Assembly: GCA_040768605.1 (NCBI GenBank)
Contig: JAXGMP010000001.1
Span: 1,483,740 to 1,547,739 of the forward strand
Direction of reading: 5' to 3'
Source: Anaerolineae bacterium
GTDB lineage: Bacteria > Chloroflexota > Anaerolineae > UBA1429
DNA: 64,000 nucleotides
Below the pieces are notes generated by a model. That model saw nothing but the letters and a program-made list of their open reading frames with translations. It did not search any database and had not been told where the DNA came from. Position 1 is the first letter of the stretch. The number at the start of each line of letters is the position of its first letter. The position numbers were made by a program, and so were the translations under genes. This document shows positions 1-48,451 of the stretch, one piece after another.

Positions 1-63
1 AGACTAGCTCCGCATCACGCCCGGATCGCTGTACGGCACACGGCCGAACACCAAGCCGCGCTC

Positions 64-92
64 ACCGCGGGGGACATGGCTGTCCCCCGCGG
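64..92 (+). other. Perfect 11-bp inverted repeat (CGCGGGGGACA-N4-TGTCCCCCGCG), probably a stem-loop at the 3' end of the gene cut off by the window start
   Basis: Inverted repeat read directly from the sequence. It lies upstream of the first permease gene and has no U-tract after it. Confidence 0.3.
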
Positions 93-161
93 TGCGTGTG
101 GCCATGCGGGCTATGGCCGCCCCGTGCGGCAGCGCCGGAGCCGCCTGACTGAGGGAAGTGT

Positions 162-1148
162 ATGTTTAACTACATCGTCAGACGCATACTGTTGACCATT
201 CCGACGGTCCTCGTGATCACCGTCGTCACCTTTATCGTCATCCAGCTGCCTGAGGGCGACTATCTCACCAACTACATCTCGCAGCTACAGTCCACGGGTA
301 CGGTGCTTGACGTCTCCGAGATCGAGGCGCTCAGGCAGCGGTACGGGCTGGATGATCCCATATATATCCAGTTCGTCAAGTGGGTGGCGCGGATGACTGA
401 GGGCGACTTTGGCATGTCGTTCCAGTGGAACCGCCCGGTGCGCGACCTGCTTGGCGAGCGCATGCTGCTCACCGTCGCGATGTCCTTGGCCACCCTTCTG
501 TTCACCTGGGCGGTTGCGTTGCCGGTAGGGATCTACTCGGCGACCCACCAGTACTCTTTCCTTGATTACCTGTTCACCTTTCTGGGCTTCTTGGGTCGTG
601 GCATTCCCAGCTTCATGATCGCACTCATCCTTATGTGGATATCCATCTCCCGCTTCGGGGTCAGCGCGGGTGGCTTGTTCTCCGTGGGCTTTCGCGACGC
701 CCCCTGGAGCTGGGCCCGCGTAGTAGATATGCTGAAACACCTCTGGATCCCGATGGTTGTCTTGGGCATCGGCGGAACGGCCAGCCTCATCCGCACCATG
801 CGCGCCAACCTTCTGGACGAGCTCAACAAGCCCTACGTCGAGACAGCCCGCGCCAAGGGCCTCACGGAGGCTCGCATGCTCTGGAAGTACCCTGTGCGCG
901 TAGCCCTGAACCCCTTCGTGAGCACGGTGGGCTGGGAACTTCCCGCGCTCATCTCGGGAGGCACGATCGTGTCGGTCGTGCTCAGCTTGCCCACCGCGGG
1001 GCCTCTCCTGCTGGATGCGTTGCTGGCTCAGGACATGTACCTGGCCGGCGCCTTCCTGCTCTTGCTCAGCGTGCTGACCGTGATCGGCACCCTCTTGTCT
1101 GACATTCTGCTGGCAGCGCTCGATCCGCGGATCAGGTTCGGGGCCTGA
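162..1148 (+). CDS. ABC transporter permease of the DppB/OppB type (peptide/nickel family)
   Basis: 328 aa polytopic membrane protein with the typical Dpp/OppB N-terminal segment (IVRRILLTIPTVLVITVVTFIV). ATG start with SD GAGGGAAG upstream, and an ATGA overlap with the next permease. Confidence 0.9.
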   Translation: MFNYIVRRILLTIPTVLVITVVTFIVIQLPEGDYLTNYISQLQSTGTVLDVSEIEALRQRYGLDDPIYIQFVKWVARMTEGDFGMSFQWNRPVRDLLGERMLLTVAMSLATLLFTWAVALPVGIYSATHQYSFLDYLFTFLGFLGRGIPSFMIALILMWISISRFGVSAGGLFSVGFRDAPWSWARVVDMLKHLWIPMVVLGIGGTASLIRTMRANLLDELNKPYVETARAKGLTEARMLWKYPVRVALNPFVSTVGWELPALISGGTIVSVVLSLPTAGPLLLDALLAQDMYLAGAFLLLLSVLTVIGTLLSDILLAALDPRIRFGA

Positions 1149-2323
1149 TGGAGATAGATAGTATGAGAACTACCGCCTCAGAAGTAGAGCCGACCACTCC
1201 ACGGGAAGACGAGACCCCGCCACACGAGGAGAGCATCTATGTCGCCTCGCAGTGGCAGCTGATGTGGTGGCGGTTCCGCCGCCACAAGGCCGCTCTCGTG
1301 TGCACCGGGATCATCCTGGTGTTGATCGGCGTATCGATCCTGGCCGAGTTCCTTGCTCCCAGCGACCCGCTGACCTACACGGTAGCCTACACCTATGCGC
1401 CGCCACAGGCCGTGCGCTTCTATGACGCGGAGACCGGCTTCTCGTGGCGCCCCTTCGTGTATGGGCTCGAATCAGGTCGCGACCCGCGCACGCTGCGGCC
1501 CACCTACACGATCGACACCACGCGCAAGTATCCCTTGCGCTTCTTTGTGCACGGCACGCCCTACAAGATGCTCGGCATCTGGGAGACGGACCTGCACCTG
1601 TTCGGCCTGGACGACCCCACCGGTGAGGGTACTCTCTTCCTCTGGGGCTCTGATCGCCAGGGGCGCGACGTCCTATCGCGCAGCATCTATGGCACACGCG
1701 TCTCCATGTCCATCGGGCTCATCGGCGTGTTTCTGAGCCTGCTGCTTGGCATCGTGATCGGCGGGTTCTCCGGTTACTATGGCGGGTGGTTTGACGACGC
1801 GGTGCAGCGGGTCATCGAGTTCATACGCTCCATCCCGAGCATCCCTCTGTGGATGGCGCTATCGGCCGCTCTGCCGCCACACTGGCCGACTATCCGCGTG
1901 TACTTTGGCATCACGATCATCCTGTCGCTGGTCGGCTGGACGGGTATGGCCCGCGTCGTGAGGGGCCGTTTCCTGGCTCTGCGCAATGAGGATTTCGTCA
2001 TGGCAGCCAAGCTCTGCGGGGCCAGTGAGATGCGGGTCGTCATGCGGCACATGGTGCCCTCGTTCACCAGCCACATCATCGCCTCGATCACCCTGTCGAT
2101 CCCTGAGATGATCCTCAGCGAGACGGCCCTCTCCTTTCTGGGGATCGGCCTGCGGTCGCCGGTGATCTCCTGGGGCGTCCTGCTGCAGGAAGCGCAGAAC
2201 GTGCAGGCAGTGGTACTGGCGCCGTGGCTTTTCCTGCCCGGCCTTCTCGTGGTGATCACCGTCCTCGCCTACAACTTTATGGGCGACGGCCTGCGCGACG
2301 CCGCCGATCCCTACGTACGCTAG
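1148..2323 (+). CDS. ABC transporter permease of the DppC/OppC type
   Basis: 391 aa with the conserved OppC core (GRDVLSRSIYGTRVSMSIGLIGVFLSLLLG). Its start overlaps the stop of the previous gene (TGATG), indicating translational coupling. Confidence 0.88.
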   Translation: MEIDSMRTTASEVEPTTPREDETPPHEESIYVASQWQLMWWRFRRHKAALVCTGIILVLIGVSILAEFLAPSDPLTYTVAYTYAPPQAVRFYDAETGFSWRPFVYGLESGRDPRTLRPTYTIDTTRKYPLRFFVHGTPYKMLGIWETDLHLFGLDDPTGEGTLFLWGSDRQGRDVLSRSIYGTRVSMSIGLIGVFLSLLLGIVIGGFSGYYGGWFDDAVQRVIEFIRSIPSIPLWMALSAALPPHWPTIRVYFGITIILSLVGWTGMARVVRGRFLALRNEDFVMAAKLCGASEMRVVMRHMVPSFTSHIIASITLSIPEMILSETALSFLGIGLRSPVISWGVLLQEAQNVQAVVLAPWLFLPGLLVVITVLAYNFMGDGLRDAADPYVR

Positions 2324-39605: not shown

Positions 39606-40754
39606 CTACATCTCGTAAAGAGTATCCAACCCGTCCAGGAACCAGTCCTCGCTGACGCGCACGTACTTGATGCACTGCCGACTCCGGTAGGAGTAGGCCA
39701 TGTGCACCAGCCCGTCGCGCGTCTGGATAATGCACGGGTAGGCGCAACGGCGGTTGAGGCTCTCGTTCCGCTCGCCCGCAAAGCCGTCGCCGGCGTCCAC
39801 GTGGCGCATCCACGGGAAGGTCTCCCCACCATCTTCCGAGACAGCCACCGTGACCGGATAACGACGCCGCGGCCAGACCGTCGCCGTCGGGTCCTCGTTG
39901 GCCGAGAAATGGTTGTGGATGAGGGCGATGCGGCCGCTCTGCAGCCGGAGAGCCTGGATCGAGGCGTTGTTGTTGGGCAGCGCGGTGCGCTCGGGGGCCG
40001 TCCAGGTGCGCCCAAAGTCGGACGACCGGCTCACATAGATGCGGTCAGCCGCGCGGCTGCGGAAAAAGGCCACCAGGCGCCCCGCAACGATCTCGACGAC
40101 CGACATCTGCACCCGCCCGCGGCTCTCAGGCACGGGGTGCTCCGTCCAGGTCTTCCCCTGGTCGCGCGAGACCTGCACGGCCGAATAGTCTTCGCCATGC
40201 CCGGCGGCGTTCAGGCTGTAGTACATGGGGAAGAGCCACTCCCCATTGGACATGGCCACGATCGGCTGGCGGCAGAACGAGGAGGGCTCCCCGAAGAAGG
40301 TCTCCACCGCGCCCCAGGTTGCCCCGCTATCCTGCGATATGCGCCGGCGGATCTGGGCCGTCCACTGCATCGTGTAGCCGCCCTCGGCCTCGCCAGCGGC
40401 CACGCGCCGCTCCCACTCGTCTCGCGGGCAGCCGCGCGTCTCCTGCGCCGTGTACAAAAGCCATACGTCGCCGTGCGGGGTGGCGAAGAGGATCGGATTC
40501 TGCTCCGACCGGGCCGAGTCGTCCGACACGAGCGCCGGCGCGGACCACTGCGAGGCGCCCTTGGGCAGACGGGCCACCGCCACCTTGACATCCCCCGCCC
40601 CCTCCCGCGACCCGGCGAACCAGGTGCACAGCAGGTCCCCATTGGCCAGCTCGACCATGTTGGCGGCATGGTTCTCCTGGCCCATGGAGGGGATAAAGGC
40701 CTCGACGCGGCTGCCATCGTCGGGGGGCACGAACAGCTCGCCTCCCAACACCAT
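39606..40754 (-). CDS. BNR-repeat (sialidase/exo-alpha-sialidase-like) glycoside hydrolase
   Basis: Four BNR/Asp-box motifs (SQDSGATW, SRDQGKTW, SSDFGRTW, SEDGGETF). The start is chosen at the first in-frame ATG after the Arg-rich extension, so the start is uncertain. Confidence 0.78.
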   Translation of the reverse strand: MVLGGELFVPPDDGSRVEAFIPSMGQENHAANMVELANGDLLCTWFAGSREGAGDVKVAVARLPKGASQWSAPALVSDDSARSEQNPILFATPHGDVWLLYTAQETRGCPRDEWERRVAAGEAEGGYTMQWTAQIRRRISQDSGATWGAVETFFGEPSSFCRQPIVAMSNGEWLFPMYYSLNAAGHGEDYSAVQVSRDQGKTWTEHPVPESRGRVQMSVVEIVAGRLVAFFRSRAADRIYVSRSSDFGRTWTAPERTALPNNNASIQALRLQSGRIALIHNHFSANEDPTATVWPRRRYPVTVAVSEDGGETFPWMRHVDAGDGFAGERNESLNRRCAYPCIIQTRDGLVHMAYSYRSRQCIKYVRVSEDWFLDGLDTLYEM

Positions 40755-41020
40755 CTCTTTGAGGTTCAGCACATCGCCCTCCCGGCTGCGGCCTGGCCGG
40801 CGCCTTCCGGCGAGCGGCGCCGCTCTCGTCGATGACGTCGCTAGCCTACCACGAACGGCGCCCCAAGCCAACGCGGCCCGCCTCGCCGGGCGCGGCCGAC
40901 GCTCGACGCCCGGTTGGCACCGCGGTACCGCTCGGCATATACTGACGTTTATCCTGCCCGCCGTCCGGACCGCAACCAGGAGTCTCACCCTGGCCTAGCA
41001 GACAGGATCGACACACACCC

Positions 41021-41668
41021 ATGGGCAACGAGGACCTGCAGACGATCCCGAAGCGCCAGGGCTCTGGCGAGGCCTTGCCGGCCCGCCCCAGCAGGCCGCG
41101 GCGCACGCTGGCGGACCTTTGGCGCGCTTATGCCGTGCGCATCATCGCTGTGGCCACTTCCCTGGCCATCACCGGGCTGGTCCTCGCCTTTCACGACCGT
41201 CTGGCGGCGCTGGCCGGCTACGGCTACGTGGGGGTGTTCCTGGTCAGCGTCATCGGCAACGCGACGGTCATTTTGCCGGTGCCCAGCCTGGCCGCTGTGT
41301 TCGCCGGCGGCGGGGTGCTGAACCCGCTCATCGTCGGGCTGGTGGCCGGCGTTGGCGAGCCCCTCGGTGAGCTCACCGCCTACCTGGCCGGCTACGGGGG
41401 CAGCGCCGTCGTGGAGGACTCGGAGCGCTACCGGCGCGTGCGCGGCTACATGGAAAACCACGGCATGCTGACCATCTTTGTGCTTTCGGCCATTCCCAAC
41501 CCCCTGTTCGACCTGGCCGGCATTGTCGCCGGCATGTCGCACATGCCGGTTTGGAAGTTCTTGTTGCCGTGCTGGCTCGGGAAGACGATCAAGACGCTGG
41601 GCATCGCCTATCTCGGTTCGGTGGCCATCGACTTTGTGACCGACCTGATGGCCAGGCTGGCGGCCTAG
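41021..41668 (+). CDS. DedA/SNARE-associated (VTT domain) membrane protein
   Basis: DedA core (YGYVGVFLVSVIGNATVILPVP...GELTAYLAGY). Confidence 0.85.
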   Translation: MGNEDLQTIPKRQGSGEALPARPSRPRRTLADLWRAYAVRIIAVATSLAITGLVLAFHDRLAALAGYGYVGVFLVSVIGNATVILPVPSLAAVFAGGGVLNPLIVGLVAGVGEPLGELTAYLAGYGGSAVVEDSERYRRVRGYMENHGMLTIFVLSAIPNPLFDLAGIVAGMSHMPVWKFLLPCWLGKTIKTLGIAYLGSVAIDFVTDLMARLAA

Positions 41669-41699
41669 GCGAAGCCGGCGCGGGAAGGGAGTGCGGCCC

Positions 41700-42134
41700 A
41701 TGTCTGATTCGCAGGTGCAGGAGTACCTGGCCCGCCTGCTAGCCGTGCAGCAGCGTGCACTGGCCGAGCTGACGGACATGCCTCGGGAGGAGTTGCGCTT
41801 TGCGGCCGACGCGCCGCGCTGGACGTCAGTACGGCGCCTGCTGCTGCGCCTCGGCGATCACCTCCGGGAACATACCACTCAGCTGGCTGAGGCGCGCGAG
41901 GCGATCGGCGCCGCGCCCACCATGCCCCAGCGCATCCTGGCACAGGCCATGATCGCCCAGGGCTACCTGCTCGGGGCGATGGTTGGCCTGCGTGACGAGG
42001 ACCTCGACACCCCGCCCGCCCCCGGCGAGTGGACGGCCCGCCAGGTGTTGGAGCATATCCTCTCAACCCAGGCCGGCTATCTCGAGGCGATCCAGCAGGC
42101 CCGGCAGGCCCGTCGCCCCGTGGAGCGCGACTGA
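41700..42134 (+). CDS. DinB/YfiT-like four-helix-bundle protein
   Basis: About 145 aa with the His-containing helices LGDHLREH and VLEHIL. ATG at 41700 with GGGAG 9 nt upstream. Confidence 0.6.
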   Translation: MSDSQVQEYLARLLAVQQRALAELTDMPREELRFAADAPRWTSVRRLLLRLGDHLREHTTQLAEAREAIGAAPTMPQRILAQAMIAQGYLLGAMVGLRDEDLDTPPAPGEWTARQVLEHILSTQAGYLEAIQQARQARRPVERD

Positions 42135-42226
42135 CGCGCCCCTGTTCGCAGCCAGAGCCCTTCGGCCGCCAGTGCCCGCCGGGGCGGCACGGACCGCGAG
42201 TGTTCATAGTGGAGTGAGGATGTAAC

Positions 42227-43507
42227 ATGACTGAGCACGTGTACGACGGATTCGACACCCGAGCCCTGCATACCGGCTACACGCCCGATAGTACCGGCGC
42301 CCGGGCCGTGCCGATCTGGCAGACTTCCAGTTATGTCTTCAGAGACGCCGATCACGCCGCGCGCCTCTTTGCGCTGGAGGAGCCCGGCAATATCTATACC
42401 CGCCTGGGAAACCCCACCACCGATGTCCTCGAGCAGCGCGTGGCCGCGCTGGAGGGGGGCGTTGCCGGCCTGGCCTTCGCCAGCGGCATGGCCGCCATCG
42501 CCGCGGCACTGACGACTCTCTGCGGCATGGGCGACGAGGTCGTTTCCAGCACGCGCTTGTACGGCGGGACGGTGACGCTGCTCAGCGTGACGCTGGCCCG
42601 CATGGGCATCCGCACCGTCTGGGTGGATTCTGACGACCCCGCCGCCTTTGCCGCGGCGATCACCGAGCGCACCAAGGTCATCTACCTGGAGACGATCGGC
42701 AACCCCAAGCTCACCATCCCCGACATGGCCGGTATTGCCGAGGTCGCCCACGCCCGCGGGGTGCCGGTGATGATCGACAACACCACCGCCTCGCCGGCAC
42801 TCTGTCGCCCGATCGCGCACGGCGCCGACATCGTCGTCCACAGCCTGACCAAGTACCTCGGCGGGCACGGCACCTCACTCGGCGGAATGGTCGTCGACAG
42901 CGGCCGCTTCCCCTGGGACAGCGGCCGCTTTGCGGAGTTCGTCGATGCCGACCCAAGTTATCACGGACTACGCTTCTACGAGACCTTCGGCAACCAGGCC
43001 TTTGCCATGCGCACCCGCCTCAAGACGCTGCGAGACACGGGCGCCTGCCTGAGCCCGTTCAACTCTTTCCTGATTCTCCAGGGTATTGAGACGCTCAGCC
43101 TGCGCATGGCGCGCCACTCGGAGAACGCCCTGGCCGTGGCCCGCCACCTGGCCCAGCACCCCAAGGCGGCCTGGGTGCTCTATCCCGGGCTGGAGTCACA
43201 CCCGTCCCACGCTCTGGCCGAGCGGTACATGCCGTCCGGCGCCAGCGGGCTGGTGGGGTTCGGCGTCAAAGGGGGCAGGCCGGCCGGCAAGAGGTTCATC
43301 GAGGGGCTGCGGCTCTTTAGCCACCTGGCCAACATCGGGGATACCCGCAGCCTGGCCATCCATCCGGCCTCGACGACGCACCAGCAGCTGAGCGACGAGG
43401 AACAGGCGCTGGCCGGAGTCACGCCTGACTTTGTGCGGCTCTCGATCGGCATCGAGACGCTGGACGATATCCTTGCCGACCTGGACCAGGCGCTGGCCGC
43501 CGTCTAG
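42227..43507 (+). CDS. metY: O-acetylhomoserine sulfhydrylase / aminocarboxypropyltransferase (Cys/Met-metabolism PLP enzyme)
   Basis: PLP-lysine motif [15 protein letters not shown] and full-length similarity to the OAH sulfhydrylase family. Confidence 0.9.
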
Positions 43508-43550
43508 CGCTCGCCAGAGACTAGGCCCCCAAGTCCAACTGCCATAGGAA

Positions 43551-43588
43551 GAGACTCTGGCCACCTCCGATGGAGTGGCCAGAGTCTC
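43551..43588 (+). terminator. Near-perfect 17-bp hairpin (GAGACTCTGGCCACCTCC-gat-GGAGTGGCCAGAGTCTC) downstream of metY
   Basis: Long palindrome seen directly with no U-tract. Could be a GC-type terminator or a protein-binding site. Confidence 0.4.
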
Positions 43589-43828
43589 CTGGGTCATGCC
43601 CCTTGCCCCGCGTAGAACACGTATCCGCGCCCGCAAGTCCGTGCTTCCTCTCCGTGCGACTCTTCCTGACCTTGCGCTAGGTTCGCGACCAACAAGTGAG
43701 CGAGTCTTGTCCCCCTTACTGAATGCTACCTACACCCTAGCAAAGTGCTAGCGCATGGTCAGGCCTTTTGAGCCTGTAGACGAGACATCCGCCAACAGAA
43801 TGCTGTACAATAGTTAACGGAGAGTGAT

Positions 43829-44173
43829 ATGAGAGAACCCTACTTGGCCATCGGGAAACGGTTGCGCCAGGCACGCGAAGGCCTCGGCCTATCACAGCAG
43901 GAAGTGGGGAACCTGATCGGACTATCCGATGTGGGGTATGGTGCGTTTGAGCGAGGCGACCGCCAGATCAGTATCGAGCACCTTCTCCGGCTCTCGGTGA
44001 TCCTGGGGCAGTCCGCGGCGTGGTTTCTGGGCCTAGACGGGCAACTTACCGAACGCGAGGATCATCTCCTAACCACGTTCCGGAGTATCACGAGCCCGGT
44101 GTTTCAGGAGCAGGCACTGGAGGTCGTCAAGGCCGTGGCGGATGCGGACCGTCACATTTGGGAGGAGTGCTAG
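43829..44173 (+). CDS. XRE-family (Cro/C1-type) HTH transcriptional regulator
   Basis: HTH QQEVGNLIGLSDVGYGAFERGDRQISIEHL. A TACAAT -10 element and SD lie upstream. Confidence 0.88.
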   Translation: MREPYLAIGKRLRQAREGLGLSQQEVGNLIGLSDVGYGAFERGDRQISIEHLLRLSVILGQSAAWFLGLDGQLTEREDHLLTTFRSITSPVFQEQALEVVKAVADADRHIWEEC

Positions 44174-44484
44174 GCGCGCCGTAGCGCCCGCGGCCCGACT
44201 CTGGCGATGGTCAGCATGCCCAGTATGGCCGAGCGCCGGGGACCTGCCCGCCCCTCGGGACAGCGGCCGCAGAGGGACAACCGGCAACGGAGACGGCCGC
44301 GGATGGCCTACGGCGTGAATCCACTCCCGGCGCAATCTCCCAGCAGAGCAGGTATTCTGGCCCTGCGACCACAGTAGCTCAGGACGCGGTGCCGGTGCAA
44401 TAGCTTGCGACGTATCCCCGTTACGCGGTGTGACAGGTTCCGGCGCCAGAGGGGGGACTGGCGCCAGCGACGTAGGAGGTCATT

Positions 44485-45063
44485 ATGCCCACGCGCCAGT
44501 GCCCGAACGGCCATCTGACCCGCGACGGCTCCGCCCTGTTCTGTCCCATGTGCGGCGCCCCCATGTCCGGCCAGTCCGCCGGAGCACCGCCCCCGCCCCC
44601 CCAGAAAAAGCGCTCCCGGGGCGGCTGCGTCCTCTTAGGGATCCTCGGGGGGATCTTCCTCCTGTTTGTCTATGTCGCCAGTCAGGGCGGCTCCTCCACG
44701 AGCGGCAGCAGGGCCAGGGCAACGGCCACCATGTCGCCGGAGCTCGTCAAGCGCCAGGCGCAGAGCATCGCCTATGACTCCCTGGCCCGTGACACGGAAA
44801 GCTACGTCGGCAACATCGTGCACTACCGCGGCAAGGTAGTCCAGGTGCAGGAATCCGGTTCGCGGGCCGTCCTGCGCGTGAACGTGACGAACGACGACGG
44901 CTGGTGGGAGGATACCGTCTGGGTGAATTACAGCGGGCCGCGCCTCCTAGAAGACGACATTATCAGCCTGTGGGGCCGAGTCCGAGGGCGCCGCACCTAC
45001 ACCGCCGTGCTGGGCAACAGCATCACGATCCCCGAGCTGGACGCGCTGATTGTTGAGCGCTAG
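44485..45063 (+). CDS. Zinc-ribbon / single-TM / extracytoplasmic beta-domain protein
   Basis: N-terminal C4 zinc ribbon (CPNGH...CPMC), Pro-rich linker, one TM helix and a C-terminal domain of about 110 aa. AGGAGG precedes the ATG. Confidence 0.8.
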   Translation: MPTRQCPNGHLTRDGSALFCPMCGAPMSGQSAGAPPPPPQKKRSRGGCVLLGILGGIFLLFVYVASQGGSSTSGSRARATATMSPELVKRQAQSIAYDSLARDTESYVGNIVHYRGKVVQVQESGSRAVLRVNVTNDDGWWEDTVWVNYSGPRLLEDDIISLWGRVRGRRTYTAVLGNSITIPELDALIVER

Positions 45064-45076
45064 CAGCGAGAAGGCC

Positions 45077-45256
45077 ATGCCCATGAACCGGCTCTACTGC
45101 GGCGACAACCTACAGGTCCTCCGCGAGGCTGGACAGATCCGTACCGTCGAGCAACTACTCGCCGGCGAGGCCTTCCAGTATCCCCACGCGAACGTCGCCC
45201 TCACCCAGGCCGAGCGGGTGGACAAGCGGCGGCCAGAGCAGGGGAGATCGGTGTGA
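45077..45256 (+). pseudogene. N-terminal stub of an N6/N4 DNA methyltransferase (MPMNRLYCGDNLQVLRE...) with no DPPY catalytic region
   Basis: The first about 17 codons match the canonical MTase N-terminus (n-i-y-GD-l-vL). The following sequence and the other frames carry no methyltransferase motifs. It abuts the low-GC cassette. Confidence 0.4.
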
Positions 45257-45359
45257 GGGACGAACAGCCGCGACCGGCTCGCACCGCACGCCTTGGAACG
45301 GACTGGGGCCGAGCACAAACAGAACAGGAGTAGGGCAATACTAGGACGAAAGGCGGAAT

Positions 45360-45836
45360 ATGCAGATCTTCCTCAGTGACAACGATATAACCCACCTGAC
45401 TGCCATGCCCAAGCAGCTCCCCTGCACCTATCGGGCAGACCTTCGTTTACGTCTAGTGCAAGACAGCAAACTGGCCTCCTCGCTGGAGATCACCACGGAG
45501 ACCGGACAGAGATTCTGCATCAAGCTTCGGCAGTCTGTCCAGGATCCTTTCGACTTTTCGGCCATTCTGGCCTATCATCTGCCAGGGTCAACAAAGGTAT
45601 TCCGCCTCAGACGCTACAATGGCGACCACGGTGAGCATACGAACCACCTGGAGAGACTATCGTTTGAGGGACCGCACGTTCACTATGCCACCGAACGTTA
45701 CCAGGCAGTGTGCCCTAAAGAGGACTCATACGCTGTTGTTTGCGATCGCTACGATGATTTGCATGGGGCACTAGAGTGTCTGCTTGAAGACTGTGGCTTT
45801 GTCAGACCGGAGACGGATCCGCCTCGTCTCCTATAG
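45360..45836 (+). CDS. Hypothetical protein (158 aa), first gene of the low-GC cassette
   Basis: Clean ORF in DNA of about 53% GC versus about 68% background. Weak SD. No recognisable family. Confidence 0.65.
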   Translation: MQIFLSDNDITHLTAMPKQLPCTYRADLRLRLVQDSKLASSLEITTETGQRFCIKLRQSVQDPFDFSAILAYHLPGSTKVFRLRRYNGDHGEHTNHLERLSFEGPHVHYATERYQAVCPKEDSYAVVCDRYDDLHGALECLLEDCGFVRPETDPPRLL

Positions 45837-45848
45837 GAGGCCGCGGAG

Positions 45849-46625
45849 ATGGGCGACATCGAGACGATCGAAGCAAGCTTCCGGTCTCGGCTCGGTAGCC
45901 GCATTCGTTTGAAGGCGCGAGGGGTTGACCGCTACCTCGTGCTAACACCCTTTGTCTTCGAGGATGGCGATCATCTCAAGATCGTGGCCAAGAGGGTGCA
46001 CGACCAGTGGTACCTCACCGATGAGGGCCATACGCTCATGCACCTTAGCTACTTCATGGAGGACACTGAGCTCTCGCGGGCTACGCGGCGAGACGTTATC
46101 GAGCACGCCGTGGACTGGTTTGGCATCAGCAACGTCGACGGAGTGCTGATGATGCCAGTGGCATCACCTGATGCCGGCGACGCCTTGTTCACCTTCACCC
46201 AGGGGCTTCTGCGGATCAGCGATGTGACTCTCCTTCAGAGTGACAGGGCGCGATCAGCGTTCATGGAGGACCTCTTTGCGCTGCTCAGAGAGACTATCCC
46301 CGAAGAGCGGCGGACCTTCAACTGGCACGACCCTGTGCACGACAAGCGGGCTACCTATACGGTCGATTGCCGCGCGAATGGGTTACCCGTACCTCTGTTC
46401 ATCTATGGTGTGCCAGGAGACGACAAGGCTCGCGACGTTACCATCAATCTTAACGTGTTCAAGCGCTGGGGGGTCCGCAACAGCTCGCTGGTGGTGTTTC
46501 AGAACCAGGAGACCATCGGTCCGCGCATCCTGGCAAAGCTTAGCGACGTGTGCGACAAGCAGTTCTCCAGCCTAACGGATAACGAAGACCTCATAAGGTC
46601 GAACCTGCGGGAGCGGTTTGTCTAG
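45849..46625 (+). CDS. Hypothetical protein (258 aa), second gene of the low-GC cassette, possibly DUF1828/DUF1829-like
   Basis: AGGAGG lies 10 nt upstream and there is a 12-nt gap from the previous gene, consistent with an operon. About 56% GC. The family assignment is uncertain. Confidence 0.7.
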   Translation: MGDIETIEASFRSRLGSRIRLKARGVDRYLVLTPFVFEDGDHLKIVAKRVHDQWYLTDEGHTLMHLSYFMEDTELSRATRRDVIEHAVDWFGISNVDGVLMMPVASPDAGDALFTFTQGLLRISDVTLLQSDRARSAFMEDLFALLRETIPEERRTFNWHDPVHDKRATYTVDCRANGLPVPLFIYGVPGDDKARDVTINLNVFKRWGVRNSSLVVFQNQETIGPRILAKLSDVCDKQFSSLTDNEDLIRSNLRERFV

Positions 46626-47231
46626 CGATTTCAGGTTCTGTGGGGTAGCGTGTCCGATGGTTGACCCATGCTCGCACACGCCAAGGAGTTCATCTGTCCG
46701 CCCCTGGCCCTAGCCGCGCCCTCGTCTTCATCCGCGAGTCCGTCGTCCGCAACGCCGCGGGCGCCGTCTCGCCGGAGCGCCATGGCTGGCTCGCCGTCGA
46801 AAAGGCCGGTATCTACGCCGACGCCGAGGGCCACCGCTCCGGCCGCACCGCACCCTCCGACTCTGCCCCAACCCTACGGCCGGCCGAAGTCCAGCCGCAC
46901 CGGTGCTGCGAGCTCCCTACGGAGCCTAGCTCGCCCCAAAGCCCTTTCCAGACAGGTCGGCCCTAAGGCTCGCCGCCGGCCGGGTGCCAGGGGCTCCTCC
47001 CATGCAGGGGGAGCCCTGCCCGACGGACGCGGCAGGCTTCTGCTTTCGTATGAGGCAGAGCTAGTCTCCCCTCTTCCCCCTGCCCTGCTCCGCCCGCTGC
47101 ACCTGATCCGCCCACGCCAGGTAACCAGCGCTTCGCGGTGTCCCATTCTCAGAGTCAGTAGATGGTCTGAGTCGCCCGAGGTCTCCGCTGCTGCGACGCG
47201 CCTGGAGGTGAAACGGCGGGCACCCAGAACA

Positions 47232-47495
47232 TTGTGGACAAGGACGCAGGCGATACGGGGGCGGCTGGGGGGGAACCTGGTGCGGGCGCTGCGGATCAGC
47301 CGGACGGAGATGCTGCGGGCGTACCGTGAAGCCACGCGGCGGAACTACCAGGCGAACGGCGACATTGTGGCGGGGTGGCGGTGGCTGTGCGCCAAGCAGG
47401 CGCGGACGTGCGCGGCGTGCCTGGCGATGGACGGGACGCACAAGTGTAGGGACCAGACTGCGGACAATGTCTCCGGAGCCTGCCGGTCATGCTGA
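47232..47495 (+). pseudogene. Fragment of a phage head-morphogenesis protein (SPP1 gp7 / Mu F-like)
   Basis: Family-diagnostic segment ISRTEMLRAYREATRRNYQANGDIVAGWRWLCAKQARTCAACLAMDGTH. The upstream part of the ORF is low-complexity Pro/Ala/Ser/Arg, giving no intact gene. Confidence 0.5.
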
Positions 47496-47966
47496 ACCAG
47501 TATCCGGGAATCACACCCCTAGAGATCGTCCGGAGCGTGTGGCGTCTCGCTCAGGGCAGACGGAGACCATCCGGCAAGCGCGCCCGCTGCCTGACATCGT
47601 CGAGCGAGTACTGCGGCAACGGCGAGATGGACACTGGACCCAGACTCTGGCATCGCACTTGCCGCCGGACAGCGAACACGACACCTGTTTATCGCCGTCA
47701 GCCTGTCGAGTCTGCGAGGGCAACTGAAGGCAGAGTTCCATCGGATCTCAAAGATGCACGGGACGGAAACACAAGACTTGTTCCACCGTGATGGGACGAT
47801 TCGAAAACGGTGGATGAGGGTCAAGTAGCACAAAGCTGGTCCGAAGACCAGCCTTGTGCAGCTCCGTCCACCGTGCGCGACCTCGGCATCTTCATACGGG
47901 ACGCTTACGCGCCTTGATCGTGGCGGGCGACTTACCACCTCAGAGCTACCCTACGTATAGCACAAG

Positions 47967-48272
47967 ATGACGACTATGGCAATGGGCACGCGGACAAGAC
48001 AATCACTGATGCCCCGGATCCGTTTCCTCTGGCTGAGGTGTGGCTGTGGGGCCGAGTACAAGGTGCGGGTGGAGCGCATCGGCGAAGGGGAGCCTTTTGA
48101 GTGCGTATCGTGCGGCGCGCAGATCGCTGTGCGGCCCTTCGCCGGGGTGTTGGAGCTATTGCACCGCTACAGCGAGCTAGTGCTCAGGATCGAGGAGGAT
48201 CTGGAGATCGAGGGCGATACGGTCACGCCGAAGAAGCAGGGCGTGACGGCCGGGCCCAGCCCGGTCAAGTAG
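47967..48272 (+). CDS. Small zinc-ribbon protein, hypothetical
   Basis: 101 aa with CGCG...CVSCG (C4). Followed by a terminator-like hairpin. No clear RBS. Confidence 0.4.
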   Translation: MTTMAMGTRTRQSLMPRIRFLWLRCGCGAEYKVRVERIGEGEPFECVSCGAQIAVRPFAGVLELLHRYSELVLRIEEDLEIEGDTVTPKKQGVTAGPSPVK

Positions 48273-48363: not shown

Positions 48364-48451
48364 GGCCAAGCAGGCGTACCGCATCGACCCGGGAATATAG
48401 TCAGGGGCCGCCCCGCGGGGTGGCCCCTAACTGTCGGCGTAAAGTCGCCGT

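What the first reader, a model, noticed from the sequence alone, without database searches (positions are those of the whole stretch)
45257..46630. Low-GC two-gene cassette of unknown function inside a decayed restriction-modification/prophage island; candidate uncharacterised accessory (defence-type) module
Two tandem, tightly spaced genes (158 aa and 258 aa; 12-nt gap; AGGAGG before the second) lie in DNA of about 53-56% GC against a 68% background. The cassette begins exactly where an N-terminal stub of a DNA methyltransferase breaks off, and it is followed by a degenerate phage head-morphogenesis gene. An XRE/C-protein-like regulator and a zinc-ribbon membrane protein lie just upstream. 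Neither protein shows a motif I can assign to a known family; the second may resemble DUF1828/DUF1829 proteins. The composition and context suggest a horizontally acquired module that displaced part of a restriction-modification system, a common signature of anti-phage or abortive-infection cassettes.
Basis: partly seen in the sequence, partly recalled or inferred. Interest (0 to 1): 0.65.

Follow-up and report, generated by a model that had tools for sequence, protein, structure and literature searches.

The report
Uncharacterised two-gene phage-defence candidate cassette
Two tightly linked foreign-looking genes form a widely travelling module that often sits inside bacterial restriction systems, so it is probably an untested anti-virus defence whose first protein matched no solved structure.

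Summary
Gene A (45360-45836, 158 aa) and gene B (45849-46625, 258 aa) are intact and 12 nt apart. AGGAGG overlaps A's stop codon. At 57.0% GC they are the lowest-GC stretch of a 68.1% GC window.

A belongs to the DUF6978 family. B is DUF1828 plus an unnamed C-terminal domain.

A relative of A is encoded in 524 species-level genomes across many phyla. In 78 of the 80 best loci B follows A directly, and the other two contigs end first. No third gene is conserved. A and B co-diverge (r=0.76).

In 11 of the 78 loci the pair is embedded in type I restriction-modification (hsdS|AB|hsdR, the prrC position) or in Hma/MADS systems. In three temperate Pseudomonas phages it matches A; in phage 5371, the one inspected, the pair follows cI.

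Through the phage homologues the pair links to PADLOC's candidate PDC-M24. I found no report of experimental validation. PADLOC's A models miss this copy.

Best reading: a mobile two-gene defence or abortive-infection module. The mechanism is inferred only.

The parts
45257..45359 (+). Leader upstream of gene A. The drop in GC begins here. No convincing sigma-70 promoter was found.
   Evidence: Sequence, composition, promoter scan.
45360..45836 (+). Gene A, 158 aa, DUF6978-family protein. NCBI calls a 143-aa version starting at M16. Invariant motif FRLRRYNG...HTN..E...HxHxATERYQ (R82, R85, N87, G88, H93, N95, E98, H106, H108, R113, Y114, Q115). Proposed catalytic or metal-binding component.
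45835..45840 (+). AGGAGG ribosome-binding site for gene B. It overlaps A's stop codon and ends 8 nt before B's ATG, suggesting translational coupling.
   Evidence: Sequence.
45849..46223 (+). Gene B, N-terminal domain (residues 1-125): DUF1828, with a type III secretion chaperone / YbjN-like fold. Proposed protein-binding or sensor domain.
46224..46625 (+). Gene B, C-terminal domain (residues 126-258). No Pfam model covers it. The fold is restriction-endonuclease-like, with D173 conserved at strand 2 but no (D/E)xK lysine in strand 3.
45077..45256 (+). Context: remnant of a PF01555-type DNA methyltransferase (59 aa). The N-terminal 14 residues are retained, and it has its own stop codon.
43829..44173 (+). 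Context: XRE-family HTH regulator. It resembles RM control proteins, CapH and RmrA.
44485..45063 (+). Context: zinc-ribbon plus transmembrane protein with a phage-family C-terminal domain.
46668..47495 (+). Context: decayed Mu F / SPP1 gp7-like head-morphogenesis fragment. Only residues ~194-268 are similar, and the hits are sub-threshold.

Best explanation
A and B form a self-contained, horizontally mobile two-gene anti-phage defence module of the abortive-infection or toxin-antitoxin-like kind. It is a divergent member of the uncharacterised PADLOC candidate PDC-M24 (a DUF6978 protein followed by a DUF1828 protein).

Shown:
- The two genes are an obligate, co-diverging, translationally coupled pair.
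- The pair moves between phyla as a unit.
- It is repeatedly inserted inside type I RM and Hma/MADS operons.
- In the inspected temperate phage (5371) it sits beside cI.

Inferred mechanism:
- A is the effector, a small enzyme built on a beta-sheet. Its invariant H93/H106-x-H108/E112 cluster, with R82/R85/N87/N95/R113/Y114, forms a metal-dependent or acid-base active site.
- B is the sensor and regulator. Its chaperone-like DUF1828 domain holds A, or captures a phage protein. Its restriction-endonuclease-like domain binds nucleic acid and is probably not a canonical nuclease.
- Infection, or inhibition of the neighbouring restriction system as with PrrC, releases or activates the effector and stops phage growth.

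In this genome the module lies in a decayed island, and its B protein is unusually diverged, so it may no longer be fully active.
For: Pairing:
- 78 of 80 loci have B directly after A on the same strand. The other two contigs end first.
- No third gene is conserved.
- Mirror-tree correlation between A and B distances is r=0.76, p<5e-4.
- The ribosome-binding site overlaps A's stop codon.

Mobility:
- 524 species-level genomes from many phyla encode a relative of A.
- The cassette is lower in GC than its flanks in 65 of 68 loci, by 6.9 points on average.
- It is the lowest-GC stretch of this window.

Defence association:
- Embedded as hsdS|AB|hsdR in L060, L064, L067, L071 and L083.
- Embedded as SNF2-DUF1156 methylase|AB|HEPN-DUF499 ATPase, or SNF2|AB|DUF1156, in L011, L078, L084, L022, L034 and L023.
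- Immediate neighbours include 7 HsdS, 9 mad2, 7 mad5 and 3 PF01555 methylases.
- In Pseudomonas phage 5371 the pair follows the cI repressor on the same strand.

Family link:
- B hits PDC-M24B at 1.4e-16.
- The phage A (37% identical to window A) hits PDC-M24A at 1.2e-8 and DUF6978 at 7e-12.
- PDC systems are defined by guilt-by-embedding. PDC-M24 is a two-family cassette.

Roles of the two proteins:
- A's polar motif is invariant in 40 relatives and retained in the phage copy.
- B's putative acidic and lysine residues are not retained in the phage copy, apart from D173 and E221.
Against: - I found no report of an experiment on any family member. Searches of the held papers found none.
- About 85% of loci are not embedded in a recognisable defence system. 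Many neighbours are housekeeping genes.
- Only 7 hits were found in 2.9 million viral contigs.
- A has no fold or family relative of known function, so its enzymatic nature is inferred from conservation alone.
- B is highly conserved (64-68% identity), which is unusual for a fast-evolving sensor.
- Which protein is the effector is not resolved.
- The window's B departs from 21 of 104 near-invariant positions, against a family median of 2. These include E218Q and K226R.
- PADLOC's A models do not recognise window A.
Confidence: 0.5

Rival explanations
1. The pair is an addiction (toxin-antitoxin) module that stabilises mobile islands, prophages and RM operons. It has no direct anti-phage role. 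One protein is a toxin and the other neutralises it.
For: It is a compact, obligate, translationally coupled pair. It sits on mobile, low-GC DNA. It co-diverges. The neighbours include other TA-type genes such as MNT nucleotidyltransferases and Fic. A DUF1829 partner protein has been proposed as antitoxin-like in HipAD.
Against: Neither protein has a DNA-binding antitoxin domain or belongs to a known toxin family. At 158 and 258 aa both are large for a classical type II pair. The specific insertion inside RM/MADS operons and next to phage cI is the pattern seen for defence genes. TA and abortive-infection roles are not mutually exclusive.
Confidence: 0.2
2. The pair is an accessory or guard component that works only with a neighbouring methylase, RM or MADS system. 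It would regulate that system or back it up, as PrrC does with EcoprrI. In this window it is an orphan because the methylase has decayed.
For: It occupies the position of prrC between hsdS and hsdR in 5 loci, and sits between Hma/MADS genes in 6. A methylase remnant lies directly upstream here. PF01555 methylases neighbour the pair in 3 other loci and lie nearby in L050. B is unusually diverged here.
Against: Most loci (about 85%) have no adjacent RM or MADS genes. The partner systems differ between loci (type I RM, Hma/MADS, phage cI region), which argues for an autonomous module.
Confidence: 0.15
3. The pair is a selfish homing-type cassette. B would be a restriction-endonuclease-fold nuclease that, with its partner A, inserts the cassette between genes, with no benefit to the host. 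Alternatively, in this genome it is simply a decaying relic without function.
For: The cassette boundaries are sharp and it is inserted between intact operon genes. B has a REase-like fold. The island here is decayed, and B is the outlier of its family.
Against: No terminal repeats or target duplications were found. B lacks the canonical catalytic lysine, and its putative acidic residues are not retained in distant members. Both ORFs are intact and full length, and both proteins are strongly conserved across phyla.
Confidence: 0.1

Closest known systems
PADLOC phage defence candidate PDC-M24 (Payne et al., bioRxiv 10.1101/2024.01.29.577857)
   Same: Same two-gene architecture: a DUF6978-type protein followed by a DUF1828-type protein of about 256 aa. 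B matches the PDC-M24B models. The phage homologues of both genes match PDC-M24A and PDC-M24B. Relatives are embedded in type I RM and Hma systems, which is the criterion that defined the candidate.
   Different: Window A, and its close relatives P0008 and the L011 copy, are not detected by any PDC-M24A model at E up to 0.1-1. Window B matches only over its N-terminal half. PADLOC would therefore not call the system here. PDC-M24 is itself an unvalidated prediction with no mechanism.
PrrC anticodon nuclease embedded in the EcoprrI type I RM locus (from established knowledge)
   Same: The genomic position is the same, between hsdS and hsdR, in five related loci. This suggests a second-line or guard role.
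   Different: There is no sequence or fold similarity. PrrC is a single ABC-ATPase-like anticodon nuclease, whereas this is a two-protein module. Most copies are not RM-embedded.
Lambda rexAB-type prophage exclusion genes
   Same: In Pseudomonas phage 5371 the pair lies directly downstream of cI on the same strand, like rexA-rexB. It is a two-gene module carried by temperate phages.
   Different: There is no homology to RexA or RexB. B is not a membrane protein. The pair is rare on viral contigs (7 hits).
PD-(D/E)xK nucleases with sensor domains (Can2/Card1, NucC, PspGI/NgoMIV-type restriction enzymes)
   Different: The N-domain is chaperone/YbjN-like, not CARF. No conserved lysine lies in strand 3. 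The acidic residues are poorly retained in distant members. There is no sequence-level match to any nuclease family.
HipAD (DS-6) partner protein with DUF3037+DUF1829 (DefensePredictor, PMC13092281)
   Same: In Pfam's description, recalled and not checked here, DUF1828 commonly occurs with DUF1829. DUF1829 was recently implicated in a validated two-gene defence system, as a proposed antitoxin-like partner.
   Different: B and 10 divergent relatives show no DUF1829 match. The partner here is DUF6978, not a HipA kinase.

Membership tests
PADLOC PDC-M24 (candidate system) | Second gene matches a PDC-M24B HMM | tested here: met
   PDLC04539 at E 1.4e-16 and PDLC04540 at 9.9e-13. The match covers only residues 4-148.
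PADLOC PDC-M24 (candidate system) | First gene matches a PDC-M24A HMM | tested here: not met
   No PADLOC hit for window A at E up to 1, nor for P0008 or the L011 copy at E up to 0.1. The link is only transitive: the phage 5371 homologue, 37% identical to window A, hits PDC-M24A at 1.2e-8.
PADLOC PDC-M24 (candidate system) | Genes adjacent, same strand, A then B | tested here: met
   12-nt gap in the window. The same order is seen in 78 of 80 loci.
PADLOC PDC-M24 (candidate system) | Instances embedded in BREX, DISARM, type I RM or Hma systems | tested here: met
   11 of 78 related loci are embedded in type I RM or Hma/MADS. In the window itself only a methylase remnant is adjacent.
Anti-phage defence system (any) | Reduces phage infection when expressed | not testable with these tools
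   I found no experimental report for this family.
Pfam DUF6978 (PF22398) | Score at or above the gathering threshold (29.6 bits) | tested here: inconclusive
   Window A scores 20.1 bits, E 8.4e-4, below the cut-off. Many relatives at about 50% identity carry PF22398, and the phage homologue scores 46.2 bits.
Pfam DUF1828 (PF08861) | Score at or above the gathering threshold (22 bits) | tested here: met
   72.6 bits, E 3.4e-20, residues 33-123 covering the full model.
Pfam DUF1829 | C-terminal domain matches the DUF1829 model | tested here: not met
   No hit at E up to 1 for window B. No hit at E up to 0.01 in 10 divergent relatives. Precomputed Pfam lists only PF08861 for all 120 listed homologues except P0122 (none recorded).
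PD-(D/E)xK nuclease superfamily | Restriction-endonuclease-like alpha-beta-beta-beta-alpha-beta core | tested here: met
PD-(D/E)xK nuclease superfamily | Catalytic D ... (D/E)xK motif on strands 2 and 3 | tested here: inconclusive
   D173 is conserved at strand 2. Strand 3 (183-188) has no conserved acidic residue or lysine. E218, E221, K226 and K237 are conserved in the close family, but only D173 and E221 persist in the phage copy. No coordinates were available to inspect the site.
Type II toxin-antitoxin systems | Antitoxin with a DNA-binding domain (HTH, RHH or similar) and a toxin of a known family | tested here: not met
   No such domains were found in A or B by Pfam, NCBIfam or PADLOC.
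Type III secretion chaperone / YbjN-like fold | Structural similarity of B's N-domain | tested here: met

The most novel reading that the evidence does not exclude
DUF6978 (protein A) is a new enzyme fold with a three-histidine/glutamate metal site. It would act as the effector of a previously uncharacterised, widespread two-protein immune module. The DUF1828/REase-like partner would control it, and the module would back up restriction-type systems (type I RM, Hma/MADS) when phages disable them.
Probability: 0.2. Interest if true: 0.75.

Novelty: new member of a known kind. Interest (0 to 1): 0.5.

Why it matters
If the pair is shown to protect against phages, it would turn a purely computational candidate (PDC-M24) into a defined defence family. 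That family is present in at least 524 species-level genomes across bacteria, and its B protein also occurs in an archaeal (Methanoculleus) MAG. It would also assign a function to two long-standing domains of unknown function, DUF6978 and DUF1828, and could reveal a new effector fold. Finally, this case shows that the current PADLOC models miss a large clade of the family.

Tried and rejected
- Sequence searches of A and B against PDB, as single sequences and as profiles, found nothing useful. The one hit was a weak match (E 0.009) of B's C-domain to a Csx1-Crn2 region, which I regard as chance.
- The afdb50 library was unavailable.
- NCBIfam gave no hits for A or B.
- The plasmid collection gave no hits for A or for the methylase stub.
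- No tRNA, att-like direct repeats or terminal inverted repeats bound the island or the cassette.
- No convincing promoter lies upstream of A.
- A profile search with B's C-domain across 1.84 billion representatives returned only the same architecture among the best 150, so it revealed no informative fusions.
- A housekeeping role is rejected because of the patchy cross-phylum distribution, the foreign composition and the mobile context.
- The low-GC stretch at window 1-1487 is only ABC permease genes.

Full report
**Observation.** The two ORFs are as described. A runs 45360-45836 (158 aa) and B runs 45849-46625 (258 aa), both on the + strand. They are 12 nt apart. AGGAGG at 45835-45840 overlaps A's TAG stop and ends 8 nt before B's ATG.

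Exact composition confirms the anomaly. A+B is 57.0% GC against 68.1% for the whole window. The lowest 1266-nt window of the entire 64 kb starts at 45331. GC3 is 0.61 for A and 0.75 for B, against 0.82 +/- 0.07 for long host ORFs (profile).

**The surrounding island.** The host genes on either side are a Cys/Met-metabolism PLP enzyme ending at 43507 and a peptidyl-prolyl isomerase on the minus strand from 48452. Between them lie:
- an XRE HTH regulator (43829-44173), which resembles RM control proteins, CapH and RmrA in PADLOC;
- a zinc-ribbon/transmembrane protein with a phage-family C-terminal domain (44485-45063);
- a 59-68 aa methyltransferase remnant;
- the A-B cassette;
- an ORF (46668-47495) in which only residues ~194-268 resemble Mu F/SPP1 gp7 minor head proteins, at sub-threshold scores;
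- a small CxxC protein.

The remnant's first 14 residues (NRLYCGDNLQVLRE) match the extreme N-terminus of a PF01555 N6/N4 methylase found near the cassette in locus L050 (11/14 identical, E 7e-6). By eye, the rest resembles that enzyme's C-terminal tail (QIRTVEQLLAGEAFQYP against QIYTVEDFFEGRRPLLP). That suggests an internal deletion, not a gene cut off by the cassette. The remnant also has its own stop codon, 100 nt before A. No tRNA gene or att-like repeat marks the island.

A MAG contig (GCA_040771465.1, JAXGHD010000009.1) is 99.6% identical over window 39846-47953, with 14 indels. These are probably assembly errors, and they explain a frameshifted version of B in the databases.

**What the proteins are: A.** Window A scores below Pfam's threshold for DUF6978 (20.1 against 29.6 bits). 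However, it has 756 database relatives, and many of those at about 50% identity carry PF22398. It also matches phrog_27326 at 4e-27.

An alignment of 40 relatives shows 25 invariant positions. They concentrate in FRLRRYNG-x4-HTN-x2-E-x7-HxHxATERYQ. The motif survives in a phage homologue that is 37% identical.

**What the proteins are: B.** B has a bona fide DUF1828 domain (72.6 bits). Its C-terminal domain is not covered by any Pfam model. DUF1829 is not detected in B, nor in ten divergent relatives.

D173 sits where the first catalytic Asp would be. Strand 3 has no conserved (D/E)xK. Of the other conserved charged residues, only D173 and E221 persist in the phage copy. Nuclease activity is therefore doubtful.

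A profile of the C-domain finds 641 representative proteins among 1.84 billion. All full-length proteins among the best 150 share the same architecture of about 258 aa.

**Is the pair a unit?** A scan of one genome per species found 524 genomes encoding a relative of A. They come from Chloroflexota, Acidobacteriota, Planctomycetota, Proteobacteria, Actinomycetes, Firmicutes, Bacteroidales, Thermotogae and other groups. B homologues also occur in Methanoculleus.

- In 78 of the 80 best loci B lies directly downstream on the same strand. In the other two the contig ends 59-150 nt after A.
- Clustering of all flanking ORFs found no third conserved gene.
- Pairwise distances of A and B correlate across 70 loci (r=0.76, permutation p<5e-4).
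- The cassette is lower in GC than its flanks in 65 of 68 loci, by 6.9 points on average.

The pair is thus an autonomous module transferred horizontally as a unit.

**Genomic company.**
- In L060, L064, L067, L071 and L083 the pair lies between hsdS and hsdR of a type I RM operon.
- In L011, L078 and L084 it lies between a DUF1156 methylase and a HEPN-DUF499 ATPase.
- In L022, L034 and L023 it lies between the SNF2-like helicase and the DUF1156 methylase of the same kind of system.
- PADLOC names such neighbours mad2 and mad5, components of MADS.

Among 127 immediate neighbours scanned there were 7 HsdS, 9 mad2, 7 mad5 and 3 PF01555 methylases. There were also KAP NTPase, DUF6079, Fic and MNT genes, alongside many unrelated housekeeping genes.

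Three temperate Pseudomonas aeruginosa phages carry a homologue of A. In phage 5371, the one inspected, the pair follows the cI repressor (HTH plus S24 peptidase) on the same strand, after one small ORF. Only 7 of 2.9 million viral contigs carry it.

**Link to what is known.** B hits PADLOC's PDC-M24B models (1.4e-16, N-terminal half). Window A hits no PADLOC model. The phage A hits PDC-M24A (1.2e-8) and DUF6978 (7e-12), and the phage B hits PDC-M24B. The window pair is therefore a divergent member of PDC-M24.

PDC systems were defined by Payne et al. purely by guilt-by-embedding in BREX, DISARM and type I RM (a companion set, the HECs, came from Hma). PDC-M24 is listed as a two-family cassette with no annotation. 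I found no experimental test of it. Papers that tested PDCs chose others. The only DUF6978 and DUF1828 mentions are incidental. DUF1829 has been implicated in the HipAD system, but B does not carry that domain.

**How it most likely works.**

Shown:
- an obligate, co-evolving, translationally coupled pair;
- a mobile module;
- recurrent insertion at the same positions where known second-line defence genes sit. From established knowledge, prrC lies between hsdS and hsdR, and rexAB lies after cI.

Inferred:
- A is the effector enzyme. Its polar motif is the most deeply conserved feature of the system.
- B is the sensor and regulator. It uses the chaperone-like domain to hold A or capture a phage protein, and the REase-like domain to bind nucleic acid.
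- Activation during infection, or when the adjacent restriction system is inhibited, arrests the cell or destroys phage nucleic acid.

I put about 0.5 on the general defence or abortive-infection reading, and considerably less on the assignment of roles. Rival readings are a pure addiction module, an obligate accessory of RM/MADS systems, and a selfish cassette or local relic.

For this particular copy, B departs from 21 of 104 near-invariant family positions, against a median of 2. The flanking methylase and phage genes are decayed. Reduced or lost activity here is a real possibility, though both ORFs are intact and full length.

**Verdict.** Four corrections apply:
- the family is already catalogued as an unvalidated candidate;
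- DUF1829 does not apply;
- 'displacement' of an RM gene is not shown;
- the prophage evidence is weak.

I rate the novelty as a new, divergent member of a known candidate kind that PADLOC misses. Interest is moderate. The appeal lies in a widespread, wholly uncharacterised two-protein module whose first protein has no structural relative of known function.

Noticed in passing
window 44485-45063 (+): 192-aa protein with an N-terminal zinc ribbon, one transmembrane segment and a C-terminal domain. The C-terminal domain matches phage families phrog_26308, phrog_5319 ('outer membrane protein') and phrog_26645 (E 1e-10 to 1e-14). It may be a prophage membrane gene.
   Followed up: partly
window 45077-45256 (+): The methyltransferase remnant keeps the extreme N-terminus of a PF01555 methylase. 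This is joined in frame to what looks like a methylase C-terminal tail. That points to an internal deletion, not a simple truncation by the cassette.
   Followed up: partly
window 45849-46625 (+): The window's B protein is the largest outlier in its family. It is changed at 21 of 104 near-invariant positions, against a median of 2. The changes include E218Q and K226R. This could be relaxed selection or a long branch.
   Followed up: partly
window 45360-45836; L011 8001-8474; P0008: PADLOC v2 PDC-M24A HMMs fail to detect this clade of DUF6978 proteins, although the B partner is detected. PADLOC would therefore under-call the system in many environmental genomes.
   Followed up: yes
L086 (GCA_040771465.1 JAXGHD010000009.1) = window 39846-47953: A same-species MAG contig is 99.6% identical with 14 indels in 8.1 kb. 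Its annotated B product contains a frameshifted patch, and several neighbouring genes are truncated. This is probably assembly error. The contig ends inside the island at window 47953.
   Followed up: partly
window 47600-48272: A second low-GC patch (58-60%) holds a 101-aa ORF with two CxxC pairs (47967-48272). It has no family match.
   Followed up: no
L085 (Pseudomonas phage 5371) 3838-6286: The gene order is cI repressor, an 84-aa ORF with only weak sub-threshold Pfam hits, the DUF6978 gene and the DUF1828 gene, all on one strand. This immunity-region layout recalls lambda cI-rexAB.
   Followed up: partly
L050 10995-12443 (-): A PF01555 DNA methylase fused to an Mrr-like / NACHT-associated inactive REase domain lies 1.7 kb from the A-B pair in a Dehalococcoidia genome. 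Its N-terminus is the best match to the window's methylase remnant.
   Followed up: partly
window 43551-43588 and 48399-48432: A perfect 14-bp stem hairpin lies just after the PLP-enzyme gene, and a GC-rich palindrome lies at the other edge of the island. They are probably terminators of the flanking host genes.
   Followed up: no
window 1-1487: The only other stretch below 62% GC is a pair of ABC (oligopeptide-type) permease genes. It is not an island.
   Followed up: yes
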